Assembly (NCBI GenBank): GCA_037441705.1
Contig: JBBIRR010000030.1
Span: 1 to 54,158, forward strand
Length of the DNA stretch: 54,158 bases
Direction: 5' to 3'
Origin: Ignavibacteriales bacterium
GTDB lineage: Bacteria; Bacteroidota; Ignavibacteria; UBA10030; UBA6906
This document shows positions 24,128 to 39,708 of the stretch, piece after piece (the stretch's first letter is position 1; each line of letters opens with the position of its first letter). Below the pieces are notes generated by a model. It was not told where the DNA came from. It worked only from the letters and a program-made list of their open reading frames with translations, and did not search any database. A program made the position numbers and the translations under genes.

Positions 24128-24158
24128 TTGCTTCTCTACGGATTTTGTTATACTTTTG
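24128..24158 (+). promoter_or_regulatory. Putative promoter of the nuoJ-mrp operon
   Basis: TTGCTT-17 bp-TACTTTTG directly ahead of nuoJ. Confidence 0.55.
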
Positions 24159-24202
24159 TGTTGTTCGTTCTACTCTGATTGGCCACCAATCATTCGACAC
24201 TC

Positions 24203-24718
24203 GTGACTGTTGAACTCATTTTGTTTTATCTCTTCGGCTCTGTCGCCATCGGCACCGCGCTGGCAATGATTCTTCAACGCAATCCCGTTGTCAGTGCGCT
24301 TCTTCTGGTTGGCAACTTTTTCTGCATAGCCGGCTTGTACCTGCTTCTGCAGCAACAGTTTCTTGCCGTCATTCAGATCGTCGTCTACACGGGCGCCATC
24401 ATGGTGCTCGTCATTTTCGTCATCATGCTGTTGAACCTTGGTGATGAGCAGCGTCTGATGGAGCGCATTAATTTCTGGCAGTCGATCGGCGTAGCCTTGG
24501 TCGTCGGCTTTCTTGCGGAGATGGTGTACATCCTGATGTTTCGCGGCCGCTCAGGAGCGCACACTGCGGTACATCCCGAAGCGGGCAGTTTGGGTACCGT
24601 TGAGGCCATTGGCAACGCGCTCTTCACGCGTTTTCTCCTGCCCTTCGAGGTGACGTCGCTGCTGTTGCTGGTTGCCATCGTCGGCGCCGTGATTCTGGCA
24701 AAGCGACGAGTTCAGTAA
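24203..24718 (+). CDS. nuoJ: NADH-quinone oxidoreductase subunit J
   Basis: [26 protein letters not shown] and [17 protein letters not shown] motifs; start GTG 24203 or TTG 24179. Confidence 0.95.
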
Positions 24719-24732
24719 GAAAGGAAGCGGCA

Positions 24733-25038
24733 ATGTCCATTGACCTCTATAGCTATCTCGGTCTTAGCGCCATGCTCTTCGCAATCGGCGTGGTGGGTGT
24801 GCTGGTCCGACGCAATGTGATCATCCTGTTCATGTGCATCGAACTGATGCTGAACTCCGTGAACCTCACACTTGCAGCATTCTCATCCTATCTGGGCGAC
24901 CAAACCGGCCAGGTCCTGGTCTTTTTTGTGATGGCCGTTGCCGCCGCAGAAGCAGCGGTCGGTCTGGCCATCGTCATTTCGCTCTTCCGCAACAAGCAGA
25001 CCGTCAACATCGACGAGATCAACATCCTGAAATGGTGA
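24733..25038 (+). CDS. nuoK: NADH-quinone oxidoreductase subunit K
   Basis: [11 protein letters not shown] and [12 protein letters not shown] motifs. Confidence 0.97.
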
Positions 25039-25209
25039 TGGCCGGAACAACTCAACGCCGAAGCTTTCAGTCTCAAGGAAATCTCGATCAGCGACACGTC
25101 TCGGTGACGCCCCCATCGCGGAGTTTACGATTACGCATTTCTTTGAGCATTGGACATTTGATTTTCTTTGAACCTTGAACCCTAAGCTCTAACCCGGAAC
25201 GTAGCCACG

Positions 25210-27144
25210 ATGCCTTATCAACTTATTGGTATAGCAGTTTTTCTTCCGCTCGCCGGTTTCCTCCTCAACGGCTTGCTCGGCTCGAAGATCAAGTCCGAGC
25301 GGGTCATTGGTATCGTGGGGAGTGCCACGGTGGGCATCAGCTTCGTCATCGCCTGCGCGATGTTCGTTGCATTGCTCGGCTCGCCGGCGGACGAACGGTC
25401 GCACACGGTGGAATACTTTCGCTGGATTGCCGCAGGAAACCTGAGTGCCAGCTTCAGCTATCAGATCGATCAGCTCTCGATCGTCATGATGCTGATTGTT
25501 ACGGGCGTTGGATTCCTCATCCACGTCTACTCGATCGGATACATGCACGGCGATCCTGGATTCTGGCGCTTCTTCGCCTACCTCAACCTTTTCATCTTCG
25601 CCATGTTGAATCTGATCATGGCGGACAACTTTCTGCTGCTCTTCCTCGGCTGGGAGGGAGTCGGGCTGTGTTCGTACCTGCTCATCGGCTTCTGGTACGA
25701 GAGAAAGTTCGATAAAGGAACGACGGGCGATGCAGCAAAGAAAGCCTTCATCGTAAATCGCATCGGCGATTTCGGATTTCTCGTCGGCATGTTTCTCATC
25801 TTCGAGACGTTTGGCACGCTGACATTCAAAGATGTGTTTACTCAAGCTTCTGCGCTCAGCGTCGGCGATACAACCGTCATGTGGATCACCCTGGCACTGT
25901 TTCTTGGCGCCACCGGCAAGTCCGCGCAGATTCCACTCTTCGTCTGGCTTCCCGATGCAATGGCAGGCCCCACACCCGTCTCGGCGCTCATTCACGCCGC
26001 AACAATGGTTACCGCGGGCGTGTACATGGTCGCGCGATGTGCGGTGCTCTATGCTCTCGCCCCCACCACGATGATGGTTGTCGCCGTCGTCGGTGTGTTA
26101 ACGGCACTCCTTGCCGCCAGTATCGGACTTGTTCAGAACGACATCAAGAAGGTGCTGGCGTATTCGACCGTCAGCCAGCTCGGTTACATGTTTCTGGGTC
26201 TCGGGGTCGGCGCGTTCGCTGCAGGAATTTTTCATGTGCTGACGCATGCCTTCTTCAAGGCGCTGCTATTTTTGGGTTCAGGCGCGGTCATCCATGCCCT
26301 GCACGAGGAACAGGATATTCAGAAGATGGGCGGACTGAAAAAGTATATGCCGATTACCTACTGGACGTTCTTCCTCGCCATGTTGGCGATTGCCGGCATC
26401 TTTCCGTTCTCCGGATTCTTCAGCAAAGATGAAATCCTGTGGAAGACATTTTCGAGCGGGCAATACGTTCTGTGGGCGATGGGCCTGTTCGGCGCAGCGC
26501 TCACGGCGTTCTACATGGCACGCCTGACAACATTGACGTTCGAGGGGACCGAGCGGTTCGATCATCATCACGTTCATCCGCATGAAGCGCCCAAAACGAT
26601 GAGCATTCCGCTCATCATTCTGGCAGTTCTCTCCGTCTTCGGTGGATTCGTTGGGGTGCCTCACAGCCTCGGCGGAAACAACGCGATCGAACACTGGCTC
26701 GATCCCGTGTTTGAAAAAGCCAACAGCAAGCTCCTCCTAACCTCCCACGGGGAAGGCGCCATCGAGTATCTGTTGATGATTCTCTCGGTCGGCGTGGGGC
26801 TTGGTGGCATCTGGTTGGCGAGAACGTGGTATCTGAGCAAGAGGGAAGTCCCCGACAGTCTTGCTGCGCGTTACCGCGGCGCATACAATCTTCTTCTGCA
26901 AAAATATAAAGTGGATGAACTGTATGAGGCCGTTGTCGTAACGCCGCTCCACAAGACCTCCGAACTCTTCCTGTGGAAGATTTTCGATGTGAGAATTATC
27001 GACGGCATCGTCAACGGCGTTCCGAAGATCATCGCCTGGTTCAGCAGCATTGGTCGGAAGGTTCAAACCGGTGTCGCACAGAGTTATGTGTTCGTGTTTG
27101 TGTTGGGCGTGGTGATTATCCTCGGCTGGCTTGCCGCCGGATAG
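25210..27144 (+). CDS. nuoL: NADH-quinone oxidoreductase subunit L
   Basis: IHVYSIGYM, GWEGVGLCSYLLIGFW, NRIGD, GKSAQIPLFVWLPDAMAGPTPVSALIHAATMV; C-terminal lateral helix with D..IIDG.VNG. Confidence 0.97.
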   Translation: MPYQLIGIAVFLPLAGFLLNGLLGSKIKSERVIGIVGSATVGISFVIACAMFVALLGSPADERSHTVEYFRWIAAGNLSASFSYQIDQLSIVMMLIVTGVGFLIHVYSIGYMHGDPGFWRFFAYLNLFIFAMLNLIMADNFLLLFLGWEGVGLCSYLLIGFWYERKFDKGTTGDAAKKAFIVNRIGDFGFLVGMFLIFETFGTLTFKDVFTQASALSVGDTTVMWITLALFLGATGKSAQIPLFVWLPDAMAGPTPVSALIHAATMVTAGVYMVARCAVLYALAPTTMMVVAVVGVLTALLAASIGLVQNDIKKVLAYSTVSQLGYMFLGLGVGAFAAGIFHVLTHAFFKALLFLGSGAVIHALHEEQDIQKMGGLKKYMPITYWTFFLAMLAIAGIFPFSGFFSKDEILWKTFSSGQYVLWAMGLFGAALTAFYMARLTTLTFEGTERFDHHHVHPHEAPKTMSIPLIILAVLSVFGGFVGVPHSLGGNNAIEHWLDPVFEKANSKLLLTSHGEGAIEYLLMILSVGVGLGGIWLARTWYLSKREVPDSLAARYRGAYNLLLQKYKVDELYEAVVVTPLHKTSELFLWKIFDVRIIDGIVNGVPKIIAWFSSIGRKVQTGVAQSYVFVFVLGVVIILGWLAAG

Positions 27145-27181
27145 TCCTCGAATCATCAATCGTGAAAACGAACCTCGTGTC

Positions 27182-28750
27182 ATGAACGAATCACTCATCC
27201 TTTCTGCAATTCTCTTCATCCCACTGGTTGGCGCCGTGGCCGTTGCTCTTGTGCGCGAGGAGGCTGCGACGCTGATCAAAACGCTGGGCATTGTGTTCTC
27301 AACAGCAGCATTCGCGCTCTCCGTGTGGCTGTTCCTGGCGTTCGATGGCGCAAATCCGGACATGCAATTTGTGGAGAAGTACGACTGGATTCCCTCGCTC
27401 AACATCTCGTACCATCTCGGCATCGACGGTATGGCGTTGCTGCTGGTGGTGCTGACAACGTTCCTGACGCCGATCTCGCTTCTTGCATCATGGGATTCCA
27501 TCGAACGGAAGCTCAAGGGCTTCGTCGTTTCCATGCTCGTTCTTGAAGTCGGGACGCTCGGCGTGTTCATGGCGCTCGACTTGTTCCTGTTCTATGTCTT
27601 CTGGGAAGCGATGCTGATTCCGATGTACTTCATCATCGGCATCTGGGGCGGACAGGAGCGCATCTATGCCGCCGTGAAATTCTTTCTCTACACGATGTTC
27701 GGCAGCCTGTTGATGCTCGTTGCGATTCTCTGGCTGGGCTACTACGCCAGCACCCAACCGGGCGGTGCCTTCACCACGAATCTGCTCGCGTTGTACAAGA
27801 TCGCGCCGGCGATCCCTCTGGACATTCAGAAGTGGATGTTCCTCGCGTTTGCACTCAGCTTCTGCATCAAGGTGCCGCTCTTTCCGCTGCACACGTGGTT
27901 GCCCGATGCACACGTGCAAGCCCCAACGGCCGGTTCGGTGATTCTTGCCGGCGTGCTGCTGAAGATGGGAACGTACGGTCTGGTGCGCTTCTGTCTGCCG
28001 CTGTTTCCGTATGCGACGTTCGAGTACATGCCCTACATCGCGGCGCTCGCTGTTGTCGGCATTGTGTACGGCGCGCTGGTATCCATCGTCCAGCCCGACC
28101 TCAAGAAGCTTGTCGCCTACTCTTCCGTTTCGCATCTCGGCTTCGTCGTGTTGGGTATCTTTGCCCTCAATGTGGAGGGTTTGCAGGGAGGCATTATTCA
28201 AATGATCAATCACGGCCTTTCGACCGGGGCGTTGTTTCTTCTGGTCGGCATGATCTACGATCGTCGCCACACGCGCATGATTGCCGACTTTGGTGGCCTG
28301 GCGCGCGTGGTGCCGGTCTATGCTGCCTTCTTCATGATCATCATGCTCTCATCGGTTGGCCTTCCGGGGTTGAACGGTTTTGTGGGTGAGTTTCTTATCC
28401 TTCTCGGCGCGTTCAAATCGCAGCTGCTTGCCAGCCACTGGTATGCCATTGTCGGTGCAACCGGGGTCATCTTTGCTGCCGTGTATCTGCTGTGGAGTTA
28501 CCAGCGCGTGTTTTTTGGAAAAATGGAGAATCCTGCAAATCAGGCACTCAAGGACCTGAATCTTCGAGAGTGGGTTGTGCTGGTGCCGGTGGTTGTGATG
28601 GTGGTGTGGATTGGATTGTATCCGAGCACGTTCATGGAGAAGACCGAAGCCTCCACGAAGCAGCTCGTGCAGATGCTGTATGATGCTCGACGCGGCGTCC
28701 ACTTCGGCCCGGCACAGCATGCCGTCTCGTCTCCCGCCGAGGTCCGATGA
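27182..28750 (+). CDS. nuoM: NADH-quinone oxidoreductase subunit M
   Basis: FYVFWEAMLIPMY, AAVKFFLYT, KVPLFPLHTWLPDAHVQAPT and GLPGLNGFVGEF motifs. Confidence 0.96.
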   Translation: MNESLILSAILFIPLVGAVAVALVREEAATLIKTLGIVFSTAAFALSVWLFLAFDGANPDMQFVEKYDWIPSLNISYHLGIDGMALLLVVLTTFLTPISLLASWDSIERKLKGFVVSMLVLEVGTLGVFMALDLFLFYVFWEAMLIPMYFIIGIWGGQERIYAAVKFFLYTMFGSLLMLVAILWLGYYASTQPGGAFTTNLLALYKIAPAIPLDIQKWMFLAFALSFCIKVPLFPLHTWLPDAHVQAPTAGSVILAGVLLKMGTYGLVRFCLPLFPYATFEYMPYIAALAVVGIVYGALVSIVQPDLKKLVAYSSVSHLGFVVLGIFALNVEGLQGGIIQMINHGLSTGALFLLVGMIYDRRHTRMIADFGGLARVVPVYAAFFMIIMLSSVGLPGLNGFVGEFLILLGAFKSQLLASHWYAIVGATGVIFAAVYLLWSYQRVFFGKMENPANQALKDLNLREWVVLVPVVVMVVWIGLYPSTFMEKTEASTKQLVQMLYDARRGVHFGPAQHAVSSPAEVR

Positions 28751-30243
28751 TGCGTTTACTGCGTCGGGTCTCCTCGATCATACTGCTTGTGTTGTTGGCT
28801 CTCCCCGCGTACGCGGACGAACCGGGTCATGCTGTGGCCGTCAACCCGTTGATGATTCTTCCGTTCGGCATGCTGCTGCTTGCCATCGCGATCATGCCGT
28901 TCATCAACCGGCGCTGGTGGGAACACAACTATCCGTATGTGGCGGTTGGTTTTGCCCTGGTGACCATTTCCTATTACCTCTTTTGGTTGAACAACCCCGC
29001 GCGCCTGTTGCACACGGGATTCGAATACGTGAGCTTCTTTGCGTTGATCGGTTCGTTGTTTGTTGTGGCAGGAGGGATTCACATTCGCATTCGCGGGAAG
29101 TCAACACCGCTGCGCAATGTATTTCTGCTGGCGATCGGTGCGGTGATCTCCAATATCGTCGGGACGACCGGCGCGTCGATGATTCTCATCCGTCCATTCA
29201 TTCGTGTCAATCGGTATCGCATCAAGCCGTTCCACATCGTGTTCTTCATCTTTGTGGTCAGCAACATGGGCGGCGCCCTCACGCCGATCGGCGACCCGCC
29301 GTTGTTTCTGGGCTACTTGAAGGGCATCCCATTTTTTTGGATTGCAGAAACTGTGTGGTTCAAATGGTTATTTGCCATGACGTTGATTCTGGGAGTGTTC
29401 TATGTGTTGGATGTTGTTTCGTACCGCAGGCTTGCTGAGGATGTTCGGCGCACTCTTGCCGCACAACATGAGGAAGGGGAGGTGAGTGGCGCACAGAATG
29501 TGTTTTTCCTCGCAGTGATTCTGATTGCCGTCTTCATCACCAACCCGCCGTTTCTGCGCGAAGCATTGATGGCGCTTGCGGCGGCGGGTTCGTATCTTAC
29601 CACCAAACACGAAATCCACAAGAAAAACGAGTTCAACTTTCTTCCCATCAAAGAAGTGGCGGTGCTCTTCTTCGGCATCTTTGCGACGATGATTCCTGCG
29701 CTTGATTGGCTCGCGCTGAACGCTTCGGCCCTCGGCATTCGTACACCGGGACAGTTCTTCTGGAGTACGGGCGCGCTCTCGGCATTTCTTGACAACGCGC
29801 CGACCTATCTTAATTTCCTGAGCGCTGCTACGGGTCTGTGCGTTTCGCCCGACGTTACGAAACAATTGATCGGACTCGTGCGCAACCACGGCGTGGACCT
29901 TGCTCTGGTCTCAGGTCCGCATGCGGTGGAAATCAAAACCGCTTTCGCTGCTCTTCTGAAATACCATTTCCACATTGTCGAGGCAGGTTCGATCACGCCC
30001 GACTTTGCCAATGCAGCGTATCTGATTGCCAACCACAGCAAGTTTGTGCAAGCCATATCGCTCGGTGCGGTGTTCTTCGGTGCGATGACCTACATCGGCA
30101 ACGGTCCGAATTTCATGGTCAAGTCCATCGCCGAGCAGTCGGGAGTGCACTGCCCGACCTTCTTCGGGTATGTGTTCAAATACTCTCTTCCGGTGCTGTT
30201 GCCTGTGTTTACCGTGGTCTGGCTCCTGTTCTTTTTTGGGTAG
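28747..30243 (+). CDS. Putative sodium:proton antiporter (ion-transporter superfamily)
   Basis: GTTGASM, SNMGGALTPIGDPPLFLG, LDNAPTY and MTYIGNGPNFMVK motifs; many TM segments. Confidence 0.85.
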   Translation: MMRLLRRVSSIILLVLLALPAYADEPGHAVAVNPLMILPFGMLLLAIAIMPFINRRWWEHNYPYVAVGFALVTISYYLFWLNNPARLLHTGFEYVSFFALIGSLFVVAGGIHIRIRGKSTPLRNVFLLAIGAVISNIVGTTGASMILIRPFIRVNRYRIKPFHIVFFIFVVSNMGGALTPIGDPPLFLGYLKGIPFFWIAETVWFKWLFAMTLILGVFYVLDVVSYRRLAEDVRRTLAAQHEEGEVSGAQNVFFLAVILIAVFITNPPFLREALMALAAAGSYLTTKHEIHKKNEFNFLPIKEVAVLFFGIFATMIPALDWLALNASALGIRTPGQFFWSTGALSAFLDNAPTYLNFLSAATGLCVSPDVTKQLIGLVRNHGVDLALVSGPHAVEIKTAFAALLKYHFHIVEAGSITPDFANAAYLIANHSKFVQAISLGAVFFGAMTYIGNGPNFMVKSIAEQSGVHCPTFFGYVFKYSLPVLLPVFTVVWLLFFFG

Positions 30244-30272
30244 ATGTTTCACGAGTTCGTTTGAGTGCGCTC

Positions 30273-30866
30273 ATGGCCGTTCAGAAAGACGTCCTGACAC
30301 GCTATGGAAAGCGCGTGCACACCTGGCGCGGCATCGCGTTACAGGGTCTCACACTCATGGCAGTGTGGCTTGTGCTCAGCGGGCGATTCGATTTCTTCCA
30401 CGTTGGCGCCGGCGCAGTCTCTGTTGCTGTGGTGCTGTGGATGAATAGAAGAGTCATGTCGCTTCAGTTCTTTCACGACGATGTCTCCGAATGGGAGCAA
30501 CTTCGTTTCGAGCATCTCCTCCGATTTGTCCCCTGGCTTGTCTGGGAAATTGTTGAAGGTAGTCTGCAGGTTGCCTCCGCCGTCCTTCACCCAAAAATGC
30601 CGATCGAGCCTGTGCTGCTTCGCTTCCGCGTGAAACTGCCCACCGTTGGGGCAAAGGTGTTATTGGGAAACGTCATCACCCTCACGCCCGGCACGGTCAC
30701 TCTCGGCATCGAGGATGACGAGTTCCTCATTCATGCGTTGCGTCAAAGCTCCGCCGGCAGCATCATTGATGGGACGATGCCGAGATGGATCGCCCAACTG
30801 ATTGACGAAGAAGGAGAAAACCTTGTTTCCGACGTGCGGGTCATCGGTTCAAGCGCGGAGGTGTAG
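30273..30866 (+). CDS. mrpE: Mrp/Mnh antiporter subunit E (MbhA-like)
   Basis: WLVLSG and NVITLTPGTVT...IHAL motifs; ATG at 30273 within the ORF-track frame. Confidence 0.92.
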   Translation: MAVQKDVLTRYGKRVHTWRGIALQGLTLMAVWLVLSGRFDFFHVGAGAVSVAVVLWMNRRVMSLQFFHDDVSEWEQLRFEHLLRFVPWLVWEIVEGSLQVASAVLHPKMPIEPVLLRFRVKLPTVGAKVLLGNVITLTPGTVTLGIEDDEFLIHALRQSSAGSIIDGTMPRWIAQLIDEEGENLVSDVRVIGSSAEV

Positions 30867-31136
30867 ATGCAAGACATTCTTGTCTCTGTAACAATTCTTC
30901 TTGCCTTCATAATCATCATCCCCTTTTATCGGGTTTTGAAAGGTCCAACGCCGTTCGATCGCTTATTGGGAGTCGGCGCTATCGGGACGAAGACCCTCGT
31001 GCTCATCTGTCTCATTGGGTATGTGTACGGAAGGATTGATATGTTCGTGGATATTGCCCTCGCCTACGCCGTCTTGAACTTCATGAGCGTGTTGGCGATC
31101 GCAAAGTACTTCCGAAGTTTTCGGAGGAGGGTGTGA
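30867..31136 (+). CDS. mrpF: Mrp subunit F (MbhB-like)
   Basis: RVLKGPTPFDR and DIALAYAVLNF motifs. Confidence 0.93.
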   Translation: MQDILVSVTILLAFIIIIPFYRVLKGPTPFDRLLGVGAIGTKTLVLICLIGYVYGRIDMFVDIALAYAVLNFMSVLAIAKYFRSFRRRV

Positions 31137-32008: not shown

Positions 32009-32448
32009 CGCACTTGTCTGGAAGCCCGATCATCGTTGCTATTGGCAGACTCATCGCGCCGTTCATTCAGGTGTTCGGGCTGTATGTGATCTTTCACGGT
32101 CACTACGGTCCTGGTGGCGGCTTCCAGGGCGGCGCAATGCTTGCTGCGAGTTTCCTGCTGATGCGCTTATGTGTCGGTGAAGATGCATCGCAGCTTCTGT
32201 TTCCACGTACACTCGGAACGTCGATCGGTATTCTGGGCGCGTGCGTTTTCTGTCTGGTAGGACTGATGGTGATGTTCTTCGGAGGCGAGTTCCTGAACTA
32301 CGGCTTTCTGCCGCTTGAAGGAATTCCTTCAGCAGATCTTCGATCAATGGGCATTCTGTTCGTCGAGGTCGCTATCGGCATTGCGGTCGCGGCGACGTTG
32401 GTGGCAATCTTTGATGATCTCCTTGTCAATGGAGGGGATGATGGCTGA
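32005..32448 (+). CDS. mrpB: Mrp subunit B (MnhB/MbhF-like)
   Basis: FHGHYGPGGGFQGG and EVAIGIAV motifs. Confidence 0.92.
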   Translation: MTHLSGSPIIVAIGRLIAPFIQVFGLYVIFHGHYGPGGGFQGGAMLAASFLLMRLCVGEDASQLLFPRTLGTSIGILGACVFCLVGLMVMFFGGEFLNYGFLPLEGIPSADLRSMGILFVEVAIGIAVAATLVAIFDDLLVNGGDDG

Positions 32449-32809
32449 GCTGGTGCTATCGTCCTCCGCCTATTGGTGGATCTTCACGCTGACAGTTGTG
32501 GGACTGTACGGCATGTTGATGAAAAAGAACCTGGTGAAGAAGCTCATCGGCCTGACGATCTTCCAGACCTCGATCATCATATTCTTTGTTGCATCAGCAT
32601 CCAAGGTGCAGGCAACCATCCCCGTTGTTGATCCACGCTTCGGCACCGACGATCCGACCCGCTACATCAATCCACTCCCGCACACACTCATGCTGACTGC
32701 GATTGTGGTCGGTGTCGCCACGGTCGGCCTTGCATTTGCCCTCCTGGTAAGCATTTACCGCCGCTACCGTACGCTGAATGAACCACATCTTCTCGAACGC
32801 ATGCAATGA
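32441..32809 (+). CDS. mrpC: Mrp subunit C (MbhG-like)
   Basis: NLVKKLIGL and NPLPHTLMLTAIVVG motifs; ATG after GGAGGGG. Confidence 0.93.
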   Translation: MAELVLSSSAYWWIFTLTVVGLYGMLMKKNLVKKLIGLTIFQTSIIIFFVASASKVQATIPVVDPRFGTDDPTRYINPLPHTLMLTAIVVGVATVGLAFALLVSIYRRYRTLNEPHLLERMQ

Positions 32810-34317
32810 CTGGTCGGCATCTTCCTATACTCATCCCGCTCGTCCTCCTGCTCGGCGCGATGCTGACAAGTATCGTCGGCGCGTGGAGGCAACGCGTTGC
32901 CTACTACGTCTCTCTGCTGGCTCTCGCGTGTGCGTTCCTCCTTGCCGTGCTGGGATTGCAGAAGGTGATTGTCGGCGGAACGATATCGTACCATGTGGGA
33001 GGGTGGCCGCCGCCCATCGGCATCGAATACGTGCTTGATCCGCTTGCTGCGTTCATGCTGGTGGTTATTCTCGGTGTTGGAACGCTCGTGTTCATCCACG
33101 CGCGCGAGCCGGTGGAAGCCGAACTGCGCGAGCGGCCGGCGTTGTTCTTCGCCGTTGCTCTGTTGCTGCTGACAGGCTTTAGCGGCATTGTGCTGACGGG
33201 TGACCTCTTCAACCTTTACGTGTTCTTGGAGATCAGCGCCCTTGCCGGTTATGCGCTGGTTGCCGTGGGCGAGAAGGCCGCACCGGTTGCCGCTTTTCGG
33301 TATTTGCTGGTGGGCACCATTGGCGCCTCGTTCTTTCTGTTAGGGGTCGGTTTCCTGTATGTGATGGCGGGTTCTCTCAACATCGTCGACCTTGCGCGGA
33401 TCCTTCCCGCGCTTTCGTCCGAACCGGTTGTCATCATCGGACTCGTTCTGATGGTGATAGGCCTGGCGGTGAAGATGGCATTGTTTCCGTTGCATAGCTG
33501 GCAGCCCGATGCGTACACGTATGCGCCTACGGCCGGTACCGCGTTGCTTGCGCCCATCAGCGCAAAAGTCGGAGCGTATGTGCTTCTGCGCGTCCTGTTT
33601 TTTCTCTTCGAGCCGTCGCTCGTTCGCTCGTCGCTTCCCGTGGCGGATGTGCTCGGATGGCTTTCTCTGGGCGGCATCCTGTTCGGTTCCATCATGGCCA
33701 TTGCTCAGAATGAACTCAAACGTATGCTTGCTTACAGCAGCGTCGCACAAATCGGCTACATTGCTTTGGGAGTCAGTTTTGCCAATCCTCTCGGCTTCGT
33801 GGGCGCGGTCCTGCATGTGCTTAACCATGCGCTCATGAAGGGTAACCTTTTTCTTGTGGCGGGGAACCTGCGCGTGCGCATCGGTCATTCCGTCATTCCT
33901 CAGTTCGACGACTCGCTCCGCCGCGCCATGCCGTGGACGATGGCTGCATTTGCCGTATCGGCGCTCTCAATGGTTGGCATTCCTCCGCTCGCCGGTTTCT
34001 TCAGCAAATGGTATCTTGTGCTGGGAGGGTTGGAACGAAAGAATTGGATTGCCGTCGGCGTTATACTCCTGAGCAGCTTACTCAATGCGGTGTACTTCTT
34101 CCGTGTGCTGGAAAAAGTATATCTTCGGCCGCTGACTCCGGCGTTGACCGAATCTCGCAGTGTGAATCCTCGTTCGATAGAATGGGCAGAGAAGGAAGCA
34201 ACGCTTCCTATGCTGCTTCCGACAGTTATCATCGCCGCTGCACTGGTCGTACTGGGATTGTTCAACGTCTGGATTGTGGACGAGCTCATCGTCCGCATGC
34301 TTCCATCAGGTTTATGA
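32806..34317 (+). CDS. mrpD: Mrp subunit D family protein, copy 1
   Basis: GGWPPPIGIE, TGDLFNLYVFLEI, KMALFPLHSWQPDAY and GIPPLAGFFSKW motifs. Confidence 0.93.
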   Translation: MTGRHLPILIPLVLLLGAMLTSIVGAWRQRVAYYVSLLALACAFLLAVLGLQKVIVGGTISYHVGGWPPPIGIEYVLDPLAAFMLVVILGVGTLVFIHAREPVEAELRERPALFFAVALLLLTGFSGIVLTGDLFNLYVFLEISALAGYALVAVGEKAAPVAAFRYLLVGTIGASFFLLGVGFLYVMAGSLNIVDLARILPALSSEPVVIIGLVLMVIGLAVKMALFPLHSWQPDAYTYAPTAGTALLAPISAKVGAYVLLRVLFFLFEPSLVRSSLPVADVLGWLSLGGILFGSIMAIAQNELKRMLAYSSVAQIGYIALGVSFANPLGFVGAVLHVLNHALMKGNLFLVAGNLRVRIGHSVIPQFDDSLRRAMPWTMAAFAVSALSMVGIPPLAGFFSKWYLVLGGLERKNWIAVGVILLSSLLNAVYFFRVLEKVYLRPLTPALTESRSVNPRSIEWAEKEATLPMLLPTVIIAAALVVLGLFNVWIVDELIVRMLPSGL

Positions 34318-34330
34318 ACGCAGGGAGGGA

Positions 34331-35827
34331 ATGATGTCGGATGCTTATCTCTCGAGCGTTCCCCTTTACGCTGTCGCGATTTCGCTCGTGGTCGTTCCTC
34401 TCATTCTTGTCAGCGGCCGATGGCCCAATGTGCGGGAGGGGTGGACTGTTGCAGCATCGCTCGTCAAGTTTGCTTTGGTCCTCACACTTGTACCCGATGC
34501 CCTCGCGAACAGAACAGCGTACATCGAGTTGGTGGAGATTTCACCGAACATCAATCTTGCTCTCAGGGCCGATCCGCTCGGTGTCTTCTTCGCGCTCATT
34601 GCCTCGGGGCTCTGGGTCTTCACGTCGTTCTACTCCATCGGGTACGTGCGGGGGTTGGACGAGCACAAACAGACACGCTACTTTGCAAGTTTCGCCGTCT
34701 GTCTTTCCGCGACCGTCGGTATAGCCTTCGCAGCGAATATTCTGACGTTTCTTATCTTTTATGAAATCCTCACCATCGCAACTTACCCGCTTGTCATCCA
34801 CAAGGAAACGCCGGAGGCGATCAGCGCAGGGCGAAAGTACTTAACGTACACACTCACTGCAGGCGTCGTGTTGATTGCCGCGACTGCCCTGACATATCAG
34901 CTTGCGGGGAGATTGGACTTTGTGCCGGGCGGCTTGCTGGGAAACGTTGTTGCATCCGGGCGCACGATGACAGTCCTGTTTTTGCTCTACCTTGGCGGTG
35001 TCGGTGTGAAGGCGGCCATCATGCCGCTGCATAGCTGGCTGCCGACCGCGATGGCAGCGCCGACACCCGTGAGCGCACTCCTGCACGCCGTCGCTGTCGT
35101 CAAGTCGGGAGTCTTTGGGGTAATGCGAGTGGTCGGATTCGTCTTTGGACCTGGCGTGATGCGGTCTTTCTATCTGAACGACGTTCTTCTGGCGCTTGCT
35201 GCGACGACCATTCTTATCGCTTCACTCCTTGCCATGCGTGAAGACAATCTCAAGCGCCGGCTTGCGTACTCCACTGTGGGGCATCTCTCCTACATCGTGC
35301 TCGGAGCGGCGTTGCTTTCTCCCATCAGCTTCGCAGGCGGTTTGATGCACATCGCTACACACGCAACGATGAAGATCACGCTGTTCTTCTGTGCCGGCGC
35401 CATCTACGTGGCTCACCACAAAGAACACGTGAGTGAGTTGGACGGTATCGGCAACGCCATGCCGTGGACGATGGCTGCTTTCACCGTTGCTGCGCTCGGC
35501 CTTGCGGGCATTCCGCCGATCAACGGCTTCGTGAGTAAGTGGCTGCTTGGCACAGGCGCATGGGAAACCGGGGACATTCTGGCACTGGGAATTCTTCTGG
35601 TCAGTGGGTTGCTGAATGCAGGCTATCTCTTTCCCATCATCCATCGAGCATTCTTCCGTCAGTCGCGTCGGTTCGAACGATATAGTGAAGCTTCGGTTCT
35701 GATGGTTGTTCCAATTGTGATGGCCGCGCTCCTTTCGTTGCTGTTCGGACTGTGGCCCAATGTGTTTGTCAACTTCTACGACCTCTCCGTCATTGTTTCG
35801 CGCAGCGTATTCGGAGGCGTTCCGTGA
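34331..35827 (+). CDS. Mrp subunit D family protein, copy 2
   Basis: FYEILT..TYPLV.H, KAAIMPLHSWLPTAMAAPTPVSALLHAVAVVK and GIPPINGFVSKW motifs; ATG after GGAGGG. Confidence 0.9.
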   Translation: MMSDAYLSSVPLYAVAISLVVVPLILVSGRWPNVREGWTVAASLVKFALVLTLVPDALANRTAYIELVEISPNINLALRADPLGVFFALIASGLWVFTSFYSIGYVRGLDEHKQTRYFASFAVCLSATVGIAFAANILTFLIFYEILTIATYPLVIHKETPEAISAGRKYLTYTLTAGVVLIAATALTYQLAGRLDFVPGGLLGNVVASGRTMTVLFLLYLGGVGVKAAIMPLHSWLPTAMAAPTPVSALLHAVAVVKSGVFGVMRVVGFVFGPGVMRSFYLNDVLLALAATTILIASLLAMREDNLKRRLAYSTVGHLSYIVLGAALLSPISFAGGLMHIATHATMKITLFFCAGAIYVAHHKEHVSELDGIGNAMPWTMAAFTVAALGLAGIPPINGFVSKWLLGTGAWETGDILALGILLVSGLLNAGYLFPIIHRAFFRQSRRFERYSEASVLMVVPIVMAALLSLLFGLWPNVFVNFYDLSVIVSRSVFGGVP

Positions 35828-36048
35828 ATCGCCTGCATTGGACAGGACTGGTGTTCGTACTGGCCGTATCGGTCGCCGCCGACCTGGCCGCGTCATCCCA
35901 CGCGCAAGATACGACACACTGGTGGAGCAGCATTCCGTCTTTCTATGCGTTGTTCGGACTGCTGGGCTGCATCGTGATCATTCTCTTTGCAAAAGTCATC
36001 GGCAAACTTTTCTTGCTGAAGAGAGAGGACTACTATGATGCAGGCTGA
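35824..36048 (+). CDS. Small two-TM Mrp-associated protein
   Basis: GTG start overlaps the upstream stop; IPSFYALFGLLGC..II..AK...L.KREDYY; overlaps the next start. Confidence 0.8.
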   Translation: MNRLHWTGLVFVLAVSVAADLAASSHAQDTTHWWSSIPSFYALFGLLGCIVIILFAKVIGKLFLLKREDYYDAG

Positions 36049-37798
36049 GATTCTTCTCCCACCCGCTGCTATTCTGCTTGCCGGGTCACTTCTTCTGCCG
36101 CTACTGCCGCGCCGCATTCGGGCGAGCGCGTTCCTGGTTTTTCCACTCGTTGCGCTCGCCATCGTGCTGACCCTGCCCGATGGTGCAACCCTGCGGGTGA
36201 ATTTCCTTGATTACAGTCTTGCCGTACTCAAGGTGGATCAACTGAGTCGTGTGTTCGCAACCGTTTTTGGCATGATCGCATTCGCCGGAGGTATCTACGC
36301 ATTCCACCTACGGGATACGGGGCAGCAGGTTGCCGCATTGGTGTATGCAGGCAGTTCGCTTGGTGTCACGTTTGCCGGCGACTACCTGACGTTGATTGTG
36401 TTTTGGGAGTTGATGGCAGTCTCCTCGACATATCTCGTCTGGGCGCGCGGAACGGACGATGCGCATCGAGCGGGTATGCGCTACCTGTACGTGCATCTGT
36501 TTGGTGGAAGCATGCTGCTGGCCGGAATTCTGCTGACGCTTGCCGAAACAGGAACGCTCGGTATCGTTGCGCTCGCTCCCAATCAGTCGGCTGCCTCGTG
36601 GCTTATCCTGGCGGGCGTTGCGCTGAACGCTGCTGTCCCGCCGTTAAACGCCTGGCTTCCCGATGCGTATCCGCGCGCGACCGTGACAGGCGCAGTGTTC
36701 CTGAGCGCGTTCACCACAAAGACTGCTGTGTACGTTCTTGCACGGGTTTTTCCCGGCTGGGAGATCCTTCTTGTCCTCGGTGTGATGATGACGCTGTACG
36801 GGGTGGTGTTTGCCGTTCTCTCCAACGACATTCGCGGCATTCTTGCCTACCACATCATCAGTCAAGTGGGGTTCATGGTGGCGGGCGTCGGGATTGGAAC
36901 GGCATTGTCGCTCAATGGCAGTGTCGCTCACGCCTTCAGCCACATTCTTTACAAAGCTCTTCTGTTCATGGGTGCCGGCGTTGTTCTGCACACTACCGGC
37001 ACAACAAAGCTGACGGAGCTTGGCGGTTTGCTGCGTGATATGCCTTCAACGTTCTGGCTGTACATGGTGGGGGCGTTCTCGATTTCCGGAGTACCCCTGT
37101 TCAACGGATTCATCAGCAAGTCCATGGTCGTCAGCGCAGCGGGCGAAGCGCACTACGAGCTTGCCTATCTGCTTTTGCATCTTGCGTCGGTCGGTACATT
37201 CCTCAGCATTGCGCTGAAGCTCCCGGCAGGCACATGGTTCGGCGAGAGGAAAAGTCTCGTTTCGTCTCGACCACCAAAGAATATGATTATTGGGATGGGA
37301 GTTCTCGCGACTCTGTGCATTGTGTACGGCGTGGTGCCCTCGCTGCTGTACCGGCAGCTTCCATACGCTGCCGCGTACGAGCCGTACACGGTTGCTCACG
37401 TCAATGAAGCAGTGCAGATGCTGCTGCTCACCTTTGTTGCGTTCTGGTTTCTCAGAGCCAAGCTCGCGCCCGAACCCACGATGACGCTGGACACCGACTG
37501 GTTCTACAGAATGCCTTCTCGTCTGGTCAAATCGGTGGTTGTTGATGGCGTGGGGAGAGTGTTCGACGGGGCGGAAGAGATTGTAAAACACGGCGTACAT
37601 CTCGTCGCGCGAGTCTCACGAAATCCTCTCATCGTTCTTCACATGATGCGGGGTGAAACCTCAAGGAACGCCGCATGGAATCCCGGCTACGACCCTGACG
37701 CTGCGCGGCTGCCTCTTGGCCTGTTGCTCGGGCTTGTGCTGCTCTGTGCTGTGGGAATCTCCGTGATCAGCATCCTCTGGTTACTGCCCCCGACATAG
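36035..37798 (+). CDS. Mrp subunit D/A-like protein, copy 3, with C-terminal lateral-helix-like extension
   Basis: VFWELMA, NAAVPPLNAWLPDAYP, SAFTTK, GVPLFNGFISK; tail DTDWFYR-amphipathic segment-terminal TM. Confidence 0.9.
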   Translation: MMQAEILLPPAAILLAGSLLLPLLPRRIRASAFLVFPLVALAIVLTLPDGATLRVNFLDYSLAVLKVDQLSRVFATVFGMIAFAGGIYAFHLRDTGQQVAALVYAGSSLGVTFAGDYLTLIVFWELMAVSSTYLVWARGTDDAHRAGMRYLYVHLFGGSMLLAGILLTLAETGTLGIVALAPNQSAASWLILAGVALNAAVPPLNAWLPDAYPRATVTGAVFLSAFTTKTAVYVLARVFPGWEILLVLGVMMTLYGVVFAVLSNDIRGILAYHIISQVGFMVAGVGIGTALSLNGSVAHAFSHILYKALLFMGAGVVLHTTGTTKLTELGGLLRDMPSTFWLYMVGAFSISGVPLFNGFISKSMVVSAAGEAHYELAYLLLHLASVGTFLSIALKLPAGTWFGERKSLVSSRPPKNMIIGMGVLATLCIVYGVVPSLLYRQLPYAAAYEPYTVAHVNEAVQMLLLTFVAFWFLRAKLAPEPTMTLDTDWFYRMPSRLVKSVVVDGVGRVFDGAEEIVKHGVHLVARVSRNPLIVLHMMRGETSRNAAWNPGYDPDAARLPLGLLLGLVLLCAVGISVISILWLLPPT

Positions 37799-37930
37799 AC
37801 GATGGGAGCAATCCCGACGATCAGGTCGTGCACAGAACAATGCTCAACGATCAGGCAAGACCTTCTGCTTTGACCTGAACCAGTGCTTCGAACGGTGCCC
37901 AATGGTTTCACCAACGACAACACAACGACT

Positions 37931-39025
37931 ATGACGCTCGAGGTGGTTGTACAGTTCGCGGGCGGATTGGTCCTCCTGATCGCCGGGGGCGAGCTGCTCG
38001 TACGCGGCGCATCGCGTCTTGCAGAGCTCGTTGGGCTATCGCCGCTGGTGATTGGTTTGACCGTTGTTGCCTTTGGAACGAGTTCGCCCGAGGTGGCGGT
38101 GAGTCTACAGTCCTCACTGGCAGGCGAGGCGGATATCGCTGTCGGCAACGTCGTCGGCAGCAACATCTTCAATATTCTCTTCATCCTCGGACTGTCGTCG
38201 CTGATTCTTCCGCTTGCGGTAGCGCGCCGGGTGATTCGCTCGGAAGGGCCGGTCATGATCGGCGTGTCGTTTCTGTTCTGGCTTCTCGCACTCGATGGGC
38301 AGATGAGCCGGTTGGAGGCGCTGATGTTTGTAGCAGGGATCGTTTTCTACACGGGACTACTTGCGCGTCAGAGTCGCAAGGAGACCGCTGCAGCGCGCAA
38401 CGAGGGTGATAGAGTCTTGGTTGAGGGAAAGAAGAAAACAGCACGCAGCCTTTTCCTCTATGGTGTGTTTGTGGTTGGTGGACTCTTGCTTCTGGTTGTC
38501 GGTTCGCACTGGCTTGTGGAATCCGCAGTGGCGATATCGAGACTTTTTGGTGTAGATGAATTGGTGATCGGCTTGACGGTTGTTGCTGCCGGCACATCGC
38601 TGCCCGAAGTGGCGACGTCTGTTGTCGCAGCCATGAAGGGTGAACGTGACATTGCCGTGGGCAATGTTATCGGAAGCAATGTGTTCAATATTCTTTGCGT
38701 GATTGGATTGGCTGGGGTAGTGAGTCCATCCGGAATCAACGTCGCTGCGGCGGCGTTGCATTTTGACATTCCGATCATGGTTGCAACGGCCGTTGCCTGT
38801 CTGCCGATCTTCGTGTCGGGGAATCGAATTTCCCGATGGGAGGGTGCGCTCTTCCTGTTCTACTACGTTGCCTACACCGTGTTCCTCGTGCTCGACGCCA
38901 AGGACCATCATGCGATCCCTGTCTTCAGTTCGGTGATGATGTGGTTCGTCATTCCCCTCACAGTCCTGACGCTTGCGATTGTGGCTCTCCGCGAGTGGCG
39001 TAATCGCACAGGAGTCTCGGCGTAG
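37931..39025 (+). CDS. Calcium/sodium antiporter (CaCA family, YrbG-like)
   Basis: Duplicated alpha repeats GTSSPE/GTSLPE and GNVVGSNIFN/GNVIGSNVFN. Confidence 0.94.
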   Translation: MTLEVVVQFAGGLVLLIAGGELLVRGASRLAELVGLSPLVIGLTVVAFGTSSPEVAVSLQSSLAGEADIAVGNVVGSNIFNILFILGLSSLILPLAVARRVIRSEGPVMIGVSFLFWLLALDGQMSRLEALMFVAGIVFYTGLLARQSRKETAAARNEGDRVLVEGKKKTARSLFLYGVFVVGGLLLLVVGSHWLVESAVAISRLFGVDELVIGLTVVAAGTSLPEVATSVVAAMKGERDIAVGNVIGSNVFNILCVIGLAGVVSPSGINVAAAALHFDIPIMVATAVACLPIFVSGNRISRWEGALFLFYYVAYTVFLVLDAKDHHAIPVFSSVMMWFVIPLTVLTLAIVALREWRNRTGVSA

Positions 39026-39070
39026 CCTCGATGGCTCGCGACAACGACCGGGCTTTGGCGGGAGTGGTTC

Positions 39071-39692: not shown

Positions 39693-39708
39693 ATCATGTT
39701 CCGGTCCG

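What the first reader, a model, noticed from the sequence alone, without database searches (positions are those of the whole stretch)
24128..39025. Complex I membrane-arm genes nuoJKLM, without nuoN, run straight into a Na+/H+ antiporter and a full Mrp system
Seen: 17 same-strand genes starting at nuoJ with its own promoter candidate. The order is nuoJ-K-L-M, then (ATGA overlap) a single-subunit antiporter, then after 29 bp mrpE-F-G-(MbhD)-(MbhE)-B-C-D-D-small-D, then a CaCA exchanger. No nuoN, nuoA/H/I/B/C/D or hydrogenase gene is in the window, and I saw no terminator between the nuo and mrp parts. Known: nuoN normally follows nuoM; NuoL/M/N and NuoK are homologous to MrpA/D and MrpC; archaeal MBH/MBS join a redox module to an Mrp-type Na+ module. 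Inference: a co-expressed and possibly physically linked complex I-Mrp system converting respiratory H+ pumping to Na+ motive force, with five antiporter-like subunits in one unit. An MrpD might stand in for NuoN.
Basis: partly seen in the sequence, partly recalled or inferred. Interest (0 to 1): 0.8.

Follow-up and report, generated by a model that had tools for sequence, protein, structure and literature searches.

The report
Complex I operon carrying Mrp antiporter genes
In this bacterium the genes for the far end of respiratory complex I run straight into three kinds of sodium or calcium exchanger genes, and the usual last complex I gene, nuoN, is missing from its normal place, most likely because it lies elsewhere in the genome.

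Summary
The gene order is real. It reads nuoJ-K-L-M, an NhaD/NhaE-like antiporter, a complete 12-gene Mrp set with three antiporter-like subunits, then a CaCA exchanger. All 17 genes are on one strand, with overlaps or gaps of at most 29 nt from nuoL to D3.

Relatives show what is unusual. In 24 of 80 related loci nhaD is linked to nuo genes. In 18 of those nuoN follows nhaD directly, and none of the 80 carries mrp genes. So the Mrp+CaCA block sits where nuoN normally is. No nuoN remnant exists on this 54-kb contig.

The physical-hybrid reading is not supported:
- The Mrp set is self-sufficient, with its own NuoK-like MrpC and an MrpA/NuoL-like subunit carrying a lateral helix.
- D1 lies outside the NuoN family.
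- Two relatives also lack nuoN after nhaD and have no Mrp there.
- NuoJ/K/L/M are not unusually diverged.

The nhaD-nuoN junction recruits antiporters repeatedly. Two relatives have a CPA exchanger there. At least four other assemblies hold nhaD and this Mrp type on one contig.

Best reading: antiporters co-expressed with complex I, nuoN encoded elsewhere. This is a new variant of the Rhodothermus-type operon, of moderate interest.

The parts
24151..24158 (+). promoter candidate: TAnnTTTG, recalled as the Bacteroidota-type -7 element
   Evidence: It is the only intergenic + strand match in 23300-39100 and lies 20 nt before the nuoJ start. The strict two-element pattern did not match here. Unverified.
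24179..24718 (+). nuoJ
   Evidence: PF00499, 139 bits. 38-67% identical to the relatives' NuoJ.
24733..25038 (+). nuoK
   Evidence: PF00420; NF004320, 125 bits, cut-off 57.
25039..25209 (+). 171-nt nuoK-nuoL spacer
   Evidence: No Rfam hit. Its fold is no better than shuffled sequence, z = +1.5. In L006 the same junction is 8 nt, and 7-78 nt (or an overlap) in most other relatives by stop-to-stop ORFs.
25210..27144 (+). nuoL, 644 aa, with C-terminal lateral-helix region and terminal TM
   Evidence: TIGR01974, 768 bits, cut-off 407.5. Aligns over its full length (641-646 aa) to the NuoL of L006, L003 and L016 with no extension.
27131..28750 (+). nuoM
   Evidence: TIGR01972, 637 bits, cut-off 263.8.
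28747..30243 (+). NhaD/NhaE-like single-subunit antiporter of the IT superfamily (PF16980)
   Evidence: PF16980, 453 bits. Source names are 'sodium:proton antiporter' and 'NhaD/arsenite permease-like'. ATGA overlap with nuoM.
30273..30866 (+). mrpE
   Evidence: PF01899, 101 bits. 29 nt after the nhaD stop.
30867..31136 (+). mrpF
   Evidence: PF04066, 51 bits.
31133..31486 (+). mrpG
   Evidence: PF03334; TIGR01300, 92 bits, cut-off 63.1.
31470..31715 (+). MbhD-like: a piece of the MrpA C-terminal domain
   Evidence: PF13244, 76 bits. Aligns to residues ~600-700 of the MrpA models.
31712..32008 (+). MbhE-like: a piece of the MrpA C-terminal domain
   Evidence: PF20501, 40 bits. Aligns to residues ~710-790 of the MrpA models.
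32005..32448 (+). mrpB
   Evidence: PF04039, 85 bits.
32441..32809 (+). mrpC, the NuoK homologue
   Evidence: PF00420, 71.5 bits. Best NCBIfam hits are the MrpC models NF005621 and NF005624.
32806..34317 (+). D1, an MrpD/MbsH-type antiporter-like subunit
   Evidence: Best NCBIfam hit is PRK12662 MrpD at 367 bits. The NuoN model TIGR01770 gives 236 bits, under its cut-off of 332.6. Best PDB match is MbsH 6u8y_H at 227 bits, then MbhH and MrpD. It forms a clade sister to NuoN but separate from it. TM5 Glu and TM7, TM8 and TM12 Lys are all present.
34331..35827 (+). D2, second antiporter-like subunit
   Evidence: PRK07234 at 570 bits and PRK08375 at 561 bits, both 'MrpD' models and both under their cut-offs. 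Best PDB match is MbhH 6cfw_H at 156 bits. The charged residues are present. It is a long branch of uncertain place in the tree.
35824..36048 (+). candidate 74-aa small membrane protein; replaces the 92-aa frame 35760-36038
   Evidence: GTGA overlap with the D2 stop, a 14-nt overlap with the D3 start, and two hydrophobic stretches. No Pfam family. Atlas nearest clusters are ~70-aa hypothetical proteins scoring 0.90-0.92, which is a lead only.
36035..37798 (+). D3, an MrpA-N/NuoL-type antiporter-like subunit with lateral helix and anchor TM
   Evidence: NF009310 (PRK12668), 708 bits, cut-off 564. AF2 model has pLDDT 92.8, with a helix at 488-529 (+531-538) and a TM at 561-583. Best Foldseek matches are MrpA 7qru_A and 6z16_A, then Nqo12/NuoL. 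The TM7 Lys is replaced by Asn.
37883..39025 (+). CaCA (YrbG-type Ca2+/Na+) exchanger
   Evidence: PF01699, 224 bits; TIGR00367, 278 bits, cut-off 179.65. Lies 84-132 nt after D3.

Best explanation
This is the distal membrane-arm operon of complex I as found in Rhodothermus-like, Ignavibacteriota and Bacteroidota bacteria (nuoJKLM-nhaD-nuoN). In this lineage a complete Mbh/Mbs-style Mrp antiporter set and a CaCA exchanger occupy the position of nuoN.

The Mrp set has three antiporter-like subunits. Its parts are the E-F-G sodium module, MbhD/MbhE/B/C, D1, D2, a small protein, and D3 with a lateral helix.

Proposed mechanism (inferred):
- The array is read largely as one unit from the nuoJ promoter.
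- Complex I and three classes of secondary exchanger are therefore made together.
- Complex I builds the proton motive force.
- NhaD/E-like and Mrp use that force to expel Na+.
- The resulting Na+ gradient drives Ca2+/Na+ exchange.
- Complex I and Mrp are separate complexes.
- NuoN, which complex I still needs, is encoded elsewhere in the genome.

Shown: gene content, order and spacing; the normal nuoN position in relatives; the self-sufficiency of the Mrp set.
Inferred: co-transcription, ion specificities, and the location of nuoN.
For: 1. Gene identities and tight spacing. No internal terminator or RNA element.
2. In 24 of 80 loci fetched with the NhaD alignment, nhaD is nuo-linked. In 18 of them an antiporter-like ORF follows nhaD directly. 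It was confirmed as NuoN (TIGR01770, 422-458 bits, cut-off 332.6) in 4 of the 5 tested; the fifth is truncated.
3. Upstream synteny (AsnRS, ABC ATPase, ABC-2 permease, nuoJKLM, nhaD) is shared with these relatives. The nuo part is therefore native, and the difference begins exactly after nhaD.
4. The junction is a repeated insertion site for antiporters. L027 and L067 carry a PF00999 Na+/H+ exchanger between nhaD and nuoN.
5. nuoN can be absent from this locus without any Mrp. In L005 and L039 nhaD is the last gene, followed by cytochrome bd oxidase genes on the other strand.
6. The Mrp set lacks nothing. It has MrpC, the MrpA C-terminal pieces, MrpB, E, F, G, an MrpD-type D1, and an MrpA-N-type D3 with a 42-51-residue lateral helix and anchor TM.
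7. NuoJ/K/L/M are intact. Their mean identities to 13 relatives (50.3, 75.0, 65.4, 65.7%) fall within the relatives' own ranges.
8. Composition is uniform across the junction: GC3 0.59-0.74, tetranucleotide r 0.88-0.92.
9. NhaD hits and D1 hits share contig lengths in four other assemblies (9756, 17800, 43315, 196878). This argues against misassembly. Two of those contigs also hold a NuoN hit.
10. The window also encodes trehalose synthesis genes, MscS and an NhaP/Kef-type exchanger, which fits a salt-adapted organism.
Against: - No nuoN was seen for this organism. The window seems to be the whole contig, so 'elsewhere' is an assumption.
- Ten NhaD hits are at least 76% identical to the window's. 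Seven of them lie on contigs of 9.7 kb or more other than 43315, and none of those seven contig lengths appears among the top 120 NuoN hits. Only 43315 does. This is weak evidence because the lists are truncated.
- Co-transcription is not shown. The 171-nt nuoK-nuoL gap and the 84-132-nt D3-CaCA gap could hold signals that my scans do not model.
- Ion specificity of every transporter is inferred from family names only.
- D1 belongs to the clade closest to NuoN, and NuoN has been reported to rescue a B. subtilis mrpD deletion under some conditions (PMC4938563, introduction passage seen). Exchangeability is therefore not absurd.
Confidence: 0.6

Rival explanations
1. Hybrid machine: with nuoN gone, the MrpD/MbsH-type D1 (or the whole Mrp module) docks onto NuoM and NuoJ/K in place of NuoN. 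The result would be a complex I whose distal arm is joined to a Na+-translocating Mrp module.
For: - The mrp block sits exactly where 18 of the 24 nuo-linked relatives have nuoN.
- D1's family is the sister clade of NuoN and keeps all four canonical charged residues.
- MrpD-like subunits replacing NuoL ('Green' complex I) and extra pump subunits ('2M') are described (bioRxiv 10.1101/2021.11.15.468770, passages seen).
- NuoN could rescue a B. subtilis mrpD deletion under some circumstances (PMC4938563, passage seen).
- Most window-clade contigs show no NuoN hit.
Against: - The Mrp block has its own NuoK-like MrpC, MbhD/E/B and a lateral-helix subunit D3, so it needs no Nuo partner.
- D1 is below the NuoN cut-off.
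- NuoJ/K/L/M show no extra divergence, as a changed partner would predict.
- NuoL is not lengthened compared with relatives.
- L005 and L039 lack nuoN at the locus without any Mrp.
- Two related contigs carry NhaD, this Mrp type and NuoN together.
Confidence: 0.07
2. Mere adjacency: the mrp-CaCA block is an independently transcribed ion-homeostasis operon that landed next to the nuo operon, with no regulatory or functional tie to complex I.
For: - 0 of 80 related loci have mrp genes near nhaD.
- 116 of 120 D1 homologues share no contig length with the NhaD hits, so this Mrp type is usually found elsewhere.
- My promoter scans cover only two consensus types.
Against: - Only 29 nt separate nhaD from mrpE, with no hairpin or promoter-like motif.
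- Antiporter genes recur at this junction in independent lineages: NhaD in 24 loci, a CPA exchanger in 2, and Mrp in at least 4 other contigs.
- The D1 tree order matches the NhaD identity order for the co-located contigs, which suggests the linkage is inherited.
Confidence: 0.2
3. Degenerating complex I: nuoN was deleted when the mrp block arrived, and nuoJKLM are remnants of a complex that no longer works.
For: - No nuoN on the contig and no remnant.
- No other nuo genes in the window.
Against: - nuoJ, K, L and M are full length, score far above the family cut-offs, and are as conserved as in relatives that keep nuoN.
- nhaD-mrp co-location is shared by contigs whose proteins are only 64-81% identical to the window's. 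The arrangement is therefore old, and unselected genes would have decayed.
- nuoA-I are also outside the locus in all relatives.
Confidence: 0.08
4. Assembly artefact: the nhaD-mrpE junction is a chimeric join in a metagenome assembly.
For: The window appears to be a metagenome-type contig, and no read data could be examined.
Against: - Composition is uniform across the junction.
- Four other assemblies from three different sources have NhaD and D1 homologues on contigs of identical length, with identities falling in parallel.
Confidence: 0.03

Closest known systems
Rhodothermus marinus complex I operon nqoB (nqo10-nqo14 with an embedded Na+/H+ antiporter gene, later classed NhaE). Melo et al. 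2005 BBA is recalled only and was not seen. The antiporter paper appears as reference 51 of PMC9408914, with the describing passage seen.
   Same: The distal-arm genes nuoJKLM carry a single-subunit IT-superfamily Na+/H+ antiporter gene inside the operon. nuoA-I lie elsewhere. The same layout occurs in 24 of 80 related loci.
   Different: Here nuoN does not follow. An Mrp set plus a CaCA exchanger follows instead.
Mrp (CPA3) antiporters, especially irregular 'group 3' clusters and the Mrp-like membrane modules of archaeal MBH and MBS
   Same: All Mrp functions are present (E, F, G, A-C-terminal pieces, B, C, D, A-N-like). The order E-F-G-MbhD-MbhE-B-C-D mirrors MbhA-H. D1 is closest to MbsH and D3 to MbsH' by sequence, and D3 is closest to MrpA by fold. 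Group 3 clusters with irregular order and duplicated mrpD are described (PMC5703873, passages seen).
   Different: There are three antiporter-like subunits instead of two. MrpA is split into at least three genes. An extra 74-aa ORF is present. TM7 Lys is replaced by Asn in D3. There is no hydrogenase or sulfane-reductase module. The cluster is placed inside a nuo operon.
'Green' and '2M' complex I variants (MrpD-like subunits replacing NuoL, or an extra NuoM), as summarised in bioRxiv 10.1101/2021.11.15.468770 (passages seen)
   Same: Complex I genes and MrpD-like genes share one gene cluster, and there are more than three antiporter-like subunits in one array.
   Different: Those clusters carry only the MrpD-like pump subunits and a lengthened lateral helix. 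Here the whole Mrp set is present, NuoL is not lengthened, and the missing subunit is NuoN rather than NuoL.

Membership tests
Complex I distal-arm operon of the nuoJKLM-nhaD-nuoN type | nuoJ, nuoK, nuoL, nuoM in this order on one strand | tested here: met
   Pfam and NCBIfam. Same order in 20 related loci, plus L002 where nuoM is split over two frames, and L009 where nuoN lies between nuoM and nhaD.
Complex I distal-arm operon of the nuoJKLM-nhaD-nuoN type | NhaD/NhaE-like antiporter gene directly after nuoM | tested here: met
   PF16980 protein with an ATGA overlap. 42-67% identical to the nuo-linked copies in relatives.
Complex I distal-arm operon of the nuoJKLM-nhaD-nuoN type | nuoN (TIGR01770) closes the operon | tested here: not met
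   No window protein reaches the TIGR01770 cut-off; D1 scores 236 against 332.6. tblastn with relatives' NuoN finds only paralogues.
Complex I distal-arm operon of the nuoJKLM-nhaD-nuoN type | nuoA-I and nuoN present elsewhere in the genome, giving a complete complex I | not testable with these tools
   The window appears to be the whole contig.
Mrp (CPA3) multisubunit antiporter | MrpE, MrpF, MrpG | tested here: met
   PF01899, PF04066, PF03334.
Mrp (CPA3) multisubunit antiporter | MrpB, MrpC and the MrpA C-terminal domain | tested here: met
   PF04039, PF00420 (best NCBIfam hits are MrpC models), PF13244 and PF20501. These align to the C-terminal part of the MrpA models.
Mrp (CPA3) multisubunit antiporter | MrpD-type and MrpA-N-type antiporter-like subunits, the latter with a lateral helix | tested here: met
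   D1 is closest to MbsH, MbhH and MrpD. D3 reaches NF009310 above its cut-off. Its AF2 model has a lateral helix plus anchor TM, and its best folds are MrpA.
Mrp (CPA3) multisubunit antiporter | Na+(K+)/H+ antiport activity | not testable with these tools
   Needs expression in an antiporter-deficient host or vesicle assays.
MBH/MBS-type respiratory complex | Redox module (NuoB/C/D/H/I homologues, NiFe-hydrogenase-like) encoded with the Mrp-like module | tested here: not met
   None among 47 main and 53 leftover ORFs.
'Green' / '2M' complex I with MrpD-like pump subunits | MrpD-like genes without the other Mrp subunits, and a lengthened lateral helix in NuoL or MrpD | tested here: not met
   The full Mrp set is present. 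NuoL is 644 aa and aligns end to end with relatives' NuoL. The feature list is taken from passages of bioRxiv 10.1101/2021.11.15.468770.

The most novel reading that the evidence does not exclude
In this lineage NuoN has been given up. The MrpD/MbsH-type subunit D1, with the Mrp sodium module behind it, joins NuoM and NuoJ/K. This would create a complex I whose proton-pumping arm is physically fused to a Na+/H+ exchanging Mrp module: a bacterial, NADH- or ferredoxin-driven counterpart of the MBH/MBS architecture with five antiporter-like subunits.
Probability: 0.06. Interest if true: 0.85.

Novelty: new variant of a known kind. Interest (0 to 1): 0.4.

Why it matters
It is still debated whether complex I handles sodium. 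For Rhodothermus marinus, proton export with sodium import has been proposed (PMC3464577 and PMC5662883, passages seen).

- NhaD/E-like in 24 of 80 loci.
- A CPA exchanger in 2 loci.
- A full Mrp plus CaCA in this window, and Mrp in at least four other assemblies.

That recurrent linkage is comparative evidence that sodium cycling and complex I activity are tied together in these organisms. It also points to concrete strains and loci in which the tie can be tested.

If the rarer reading were true, with Mrp replacing NuoN, it would be a living intermediate between Mrp antiporters and complex I.

Tried and rejected
The order of nhaD, nuoN and mrp on contigs 9756, 17800, 43315 and 196878 therefore stays unknown.
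- The strict Bacteroidota two-element promoter pattern gave one match, inside D1 on the minus strand, and none before nuoJ.
- The sigma-70 scan found 2 sites where 7.1 were expected, both on the minus strand.
- Terminator-like hits were 35 against 21 expected. All hits inside the array lie within T-rich membrane-protein genes.
- Rfam found nothing, and the nuoK-nuoL spacer does not fold better than shuffles.
- The 92-aa 'small' ORF was rejected as a likely wrong frame. For the 74-aa alternative, Pfam gave only sub-threshold noise and the Atlas gave only unnamed ~70-aa clusters.
- Complex prediction was not run. D1 is a homologue of NuoN, so a pass would come from likeness to solved structures and a miss would not count.
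- The careful tree search did not finish, so the quick tree is reported. D2 is a long branch of uncertain place.
- Literature searches listed no paper describing a nuoJKLM-nhaD-mrp array. These were keyword searches of an open-access library and do not show the array is unpublished. Melo et al. 2005 is not in the library. Supplements were not consulted.

Full report
**What is there.** The order is nuoJ (24179-24718), nuoK (24733-25038), nuoL (25210-27144), nuoM (27131-28750), then a 498-aa PF16980/CitMHS_2 transporter (28747-30243). Public sources call that transporter a sodium:proton antiporter or NhaD/arsenite-permease-like.

Next come mrpE, mrpF, mrpG, an MbhD-like and an MbhE-like piece of MrpA, mrpB and mrpC. 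Three PF00361 antiporter-like proteins follow: D1 (32806-34317), D2 (34331-35827) and D3 (36035-37798). A CaCA exchanger (37883-39025) closes the array.

- nuoM and the antiporter gene overlap by ATGA, and mrpE starts 29 nt after the antiporter's stop.
- Every junction from nuoL to D3 is an overlap or at most 29 nt.
- The larger gaps are nuoK-nuoL (171 nt) and D3-CaCA (84-132 nt).
- No Rfam family matches the region, and the 171-nt spacer is not structured.
- Terminator-like hits inside the array all lie within T-rich membrane-protein genes.
- The only intergenic + strand TAnnTTTG lies 20 nt before nuoJ. I recall that motif as the Bacteroidota -7 element. The stricter two-element pattern does not match there.

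**Two corrections.**
- The 92-aa 'small' frame is arginine-rich and has no hydrophobic segment. A 74-aa ORF in another frame (35824-36048) is the better candidate. It has a GTGA overlap with D2's stop and two hydrophobic stretches. It has no known family.
- No other nuo gene and no hydrogenase gene is present, among 47 main ORFs and 53 leftover ORFs of 70 aa or more.

**The organism.** The window carries T9SS sorting domains, an alternative complex III cluster, trehalose synthesis genes, MscS and an NhaP/Kef-type exchanger. Its closest relatives among fetched loci are MAGs labelled Ignavibacteriota, Bacteroidota, Chitinophagales and Kryptonium. The window's own proteins are listed with a longest contig of 54158, which equals the window length. 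The window is therefore probably the whole contig.

**What relatives have at this place.** I aligned 20 NhaD-like proteins and scanned the genome collection, keeping 80 loci at 43-67% identity. Each locus was labelled by phmmer with the window's proteins.

- 22 loci have nuoM-type genes beside nhaD. Two more (L011, L035) begin at nhaD and have an antiporter-like ORF next. That makes 24 of 80 nuo-linked loci.
- Up to twelve of these also share the upstream genes AsnRS, ABC ATPase and ABC-2 permease (AsnRS in 15 loci, the ATPase in 11). The nuo part of the window is therefore native.
- In 18 loci a ~475-aa antiporter-like ORF follows nhaD directly.
- I tested five of these ORFs. Four reach the NuoN model TIGR01770 at 422-458 bits (cut-off 332.6). 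The fifth is truncated and scores 293.
- In L009 the order is nuoJKLM-nuoN-nhaD.
- In L027 and L067 a PF00999 Na+/H+ exchanger of 458 or 463 aa sits between nhaD and nuoN.
- In L005 and L039 nhaD is the last gene, and cytochrome bd oxidase genes follow on the other strand. No nuoN lies within 10 kb downstream. L053 also has none.
- None of the 80 loci has any hit to mrpE, F, G, MbhD, MbhE, mrpB, mrpC or the CaCA gene, and none has a strong D1-D3 hit. 45 of the loci extend at least 8 kb downstream.

The Mrp+CaCA block therefore occupies the position that nuoN normally holds. Of eight relatives' NuoN sent to tblastn, results were printed for two. They gave only paralogue-level matches, the best being D1 at 33% identity and 156 bits, and no remnant.

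**Is the junction real and shared?** Composition is uniform across it. GC is 0.49-0.60 per gene, GC3 is 0.59-0.74, and tetranucleotide correlations between the nuo block, the mrp block and the flanks are 0.88-0.92.

The protein searches print the longest contig for each hit. Among 120 NhaD hits and 120 D1 hits, four contig lengths besides the window's own coincide: 9756, 17800, 43315 and 196878. In each pair the source label is the same and the identities fall in parallel (NhaD 81/80/77/69%, D1 77/72/64/63%). The D1 tree places these hits in the same order.

I take this as evidence that nhaD and this Mrp type share a contig in at least four other assemblies. The linkage would then be inherited rather than an assembly error.

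Two of these contigs (43315 and 196878) also match a NuoN hit. Some relatives therefore have nhaD, nuoN and mrp together.

Ten NhaD hits are at least 76% identical to the window's. Only the 43315 contig appears in the NuoN list. Over all 120 NhaD hits, 36 contig lengths recur there. The lists are truncated, so this is only a hint that the window's nearest relatives also lack nuoN at the locus.

**What the Mrp block is.**
- D1 is closest to MbsH (6u8y_H, 227 bits), then MbhH and MrpD.
- D2 is closest to MbhH.
- D3 is closest by sequence to MbsH' (6u8y_X), and it reaches NF009310 above its cut-off.
- D3 has many relatives: 25188 at E of 0.001 or better.
- An AF2 model of D3 built on 55 sequences has pLDDT 92.8. 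It shows a long helix at 488-529 (continuing 531-538) followed by a terminal TM at 561-583.
- Its best fold matches are MrpA of Bacillus pseudofirmus and Anoxybacillus, then Nqo12/NuoL.

D3 is therefore the lateral-helix subunit. [quoted passage not shown] I did not measure how many subunits D3's helix can span.

An alignment with the window's NuoL and NuoM and relatives' NuoN shows the TM5 Glu, TM8 Lys and TM12 Lys in D1, D2 and D3. The TM7 Lys is present in D1 and D2 but is Asn in D3. The helix labels are from memory.

With MrpC (the NuoK homologue), MbhD/MbhE/MrpB and MrpE-G, the block encodes everything a Mrp complex needs. It has three pump-like subunits instead of two. Irregular 'group 3' mrp clusters with duplicated mrpD are known (PMC5703873, passages seen).

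**Does an MrpD replace NuoN?**

Evidence against:
- D1 is below the NuoN cut-off. In a quick tree it forms its own family, sister to NuoN with SH-aLRT 95 but separated by long stems.
- The Mrp block is self-sufficient.
- NuoL aligns end to end with relatives' NuoL.
- NuoJ/K/L/M are no more diverged from 13 relatives than those relatives are from each other. The window's means are 50.3, 75.0, 65.4 and 65.7%. The relatives' ranges are 48.5-54.6, 71.3-77.6, 61.0-66.2 and 62.1-65.9%.
- L005 and L039 show that nuoN can be missing from this locus without any Mrp.

Evidence for:
- The exact positional replacement.
- The kinship of MrpD and NuoN.
- The report that NuoN could rescue a B. subtilis mrpD deletion under some circumstances (PMC4938563, abstract and introduction passages seen).
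- The precedent of MrpD-like subunits replacing NuoL in 'Green' complex I (bioRxiv 10.1101/2021.11.15.468770, passages seen).

I put the hybrid at about 6-7%.

**Most likely mechanism.** The array is a complex I distal-arm operon that has accumulated cation/proton exchangers. An embedded antiporter gene in the nqo10-14 operon of Rhodothermus marinus is known to me from Melo et al. 2005. That paper is recalled only and is not in the library. The R. marinus antiporter was later proposed as the NhaE family (PMC9408914, passage seen).

For R. marinus complex I, proton export together with sodium import has been proposed (PMC3464577 and PMC5662883, passages seen). Under that view, or simply under salt stress, making Na+ extruders together with the proton pump makes sense. 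Complex I builds the proton motive force, the NhaD/E-like protein and Mrp spend part of it to expel Na+, and CaCA uses the Na+ gradient. These steps are inferred from family membership and gene layout. None was measured.

**Verdict.** The co-expression idea is plausible and gains support from the recurrent recruitment of antiporters at this junction. The physical-hybrid idea is not supported but is not excluded, because nuoN of this organism was not found. I rate it a new variant of a known kind of operon, with interest 0.4.

Noticed in passing
L027:11444-12820 and L067:4127-5518: In two relatives a CPA-type Na+/H+ exchanger (PF00999, 458 and 463 aa) is inserted between nhaD and nuoN. This is a second, independent antiporter recruitment at the same junction.
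   Followed up: partly
L005:9980-14652 and L039:10001-14622: nuoJKLM-nhaD ends without nuoN. Cytochrome bd oxidase subunits I and II follow on the opposite strand in L005 (Pfam). L039 has ORFs of matching size and layout that were not scanned.
   Followed up: partly
L053:8448-11266: A nuoM-like gene split over two frames sits directly before nhaD. No nuoJ, nuoK or nuoL hit occurs in the 8.4 kb upstream.
   Followed up: no
window 25039-25209: The 171-nt nuoK-nuoL spacer is far longer than in L006, where the same junction is 8 nt by stop-to-stop ORFs. It has no Rfam hit and no stable fold.
   Followed up: partly
window 35760-36048: Two overlapping small ORFs lie between D2 and D3. The 92-aa frame looks spurious. 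The 74-aa frame (35824-36048) looks like a small two-segment membrane protein with no family.
   Followed up: partly
window 4689-9902 (minus strand): An osmoprotection cluster: a fused trehalose-6-phosphate synthase/phosphatase, a TreT-type trehalose synthase, DUF5752 and an MscS-type channel.
   Followed up: no
window 10202-11926: One 574-aa ORF joins a class-I glutamine amidotransferase domain to a DAHP synthase with its ferredoxin-like domain. This is an unusual fusion.
   Followed up: no
window 12650-15819: GluRS-type and GlnRS-type class I synthetase genes lie back to back with a 4-nt overlap.
   Followed up: no
window 40105-41718 (minus strand): A further cation/proton exchanger (PF00999 with a TrkA_C domain) converges on the array. 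This window therefore encodes exchangers of four classes: NhaD-like, Mrp, CaCA and CPA.
   Followed up: no
window 39026-40104: About 1.1 kb holds no recognisable gene; eight ORFs of 70-149 aa overlapping this stretch have no Pfam hit. Terminator-like hairpins occur on both strands at 39518-39530 and 39619-39635.
   Followed up: no
window 47992-54158: An alternative complex III cluster: a multihaem cytochrome c, a 998-aa Fe-S/molybdopterin-like subunit, an NrfD-like subunit and ActD. It runs to the end of the contig.
   Followed up: no
window 23374-23898: A 174-aa protein with no family, a signal-peptide-like start and a Gly/aromatic-rich body lies between the ABC-2 permease and nuoJ. It is conserved at the same place in L002 and L003.
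   Followed up: no
window 2571-3035 (minus strand): A 154-aa protein made only of transposase-type helix-turn-helix domains, possibly the N-terminal part of an insertion-sequence transposase.
   Followed up: no
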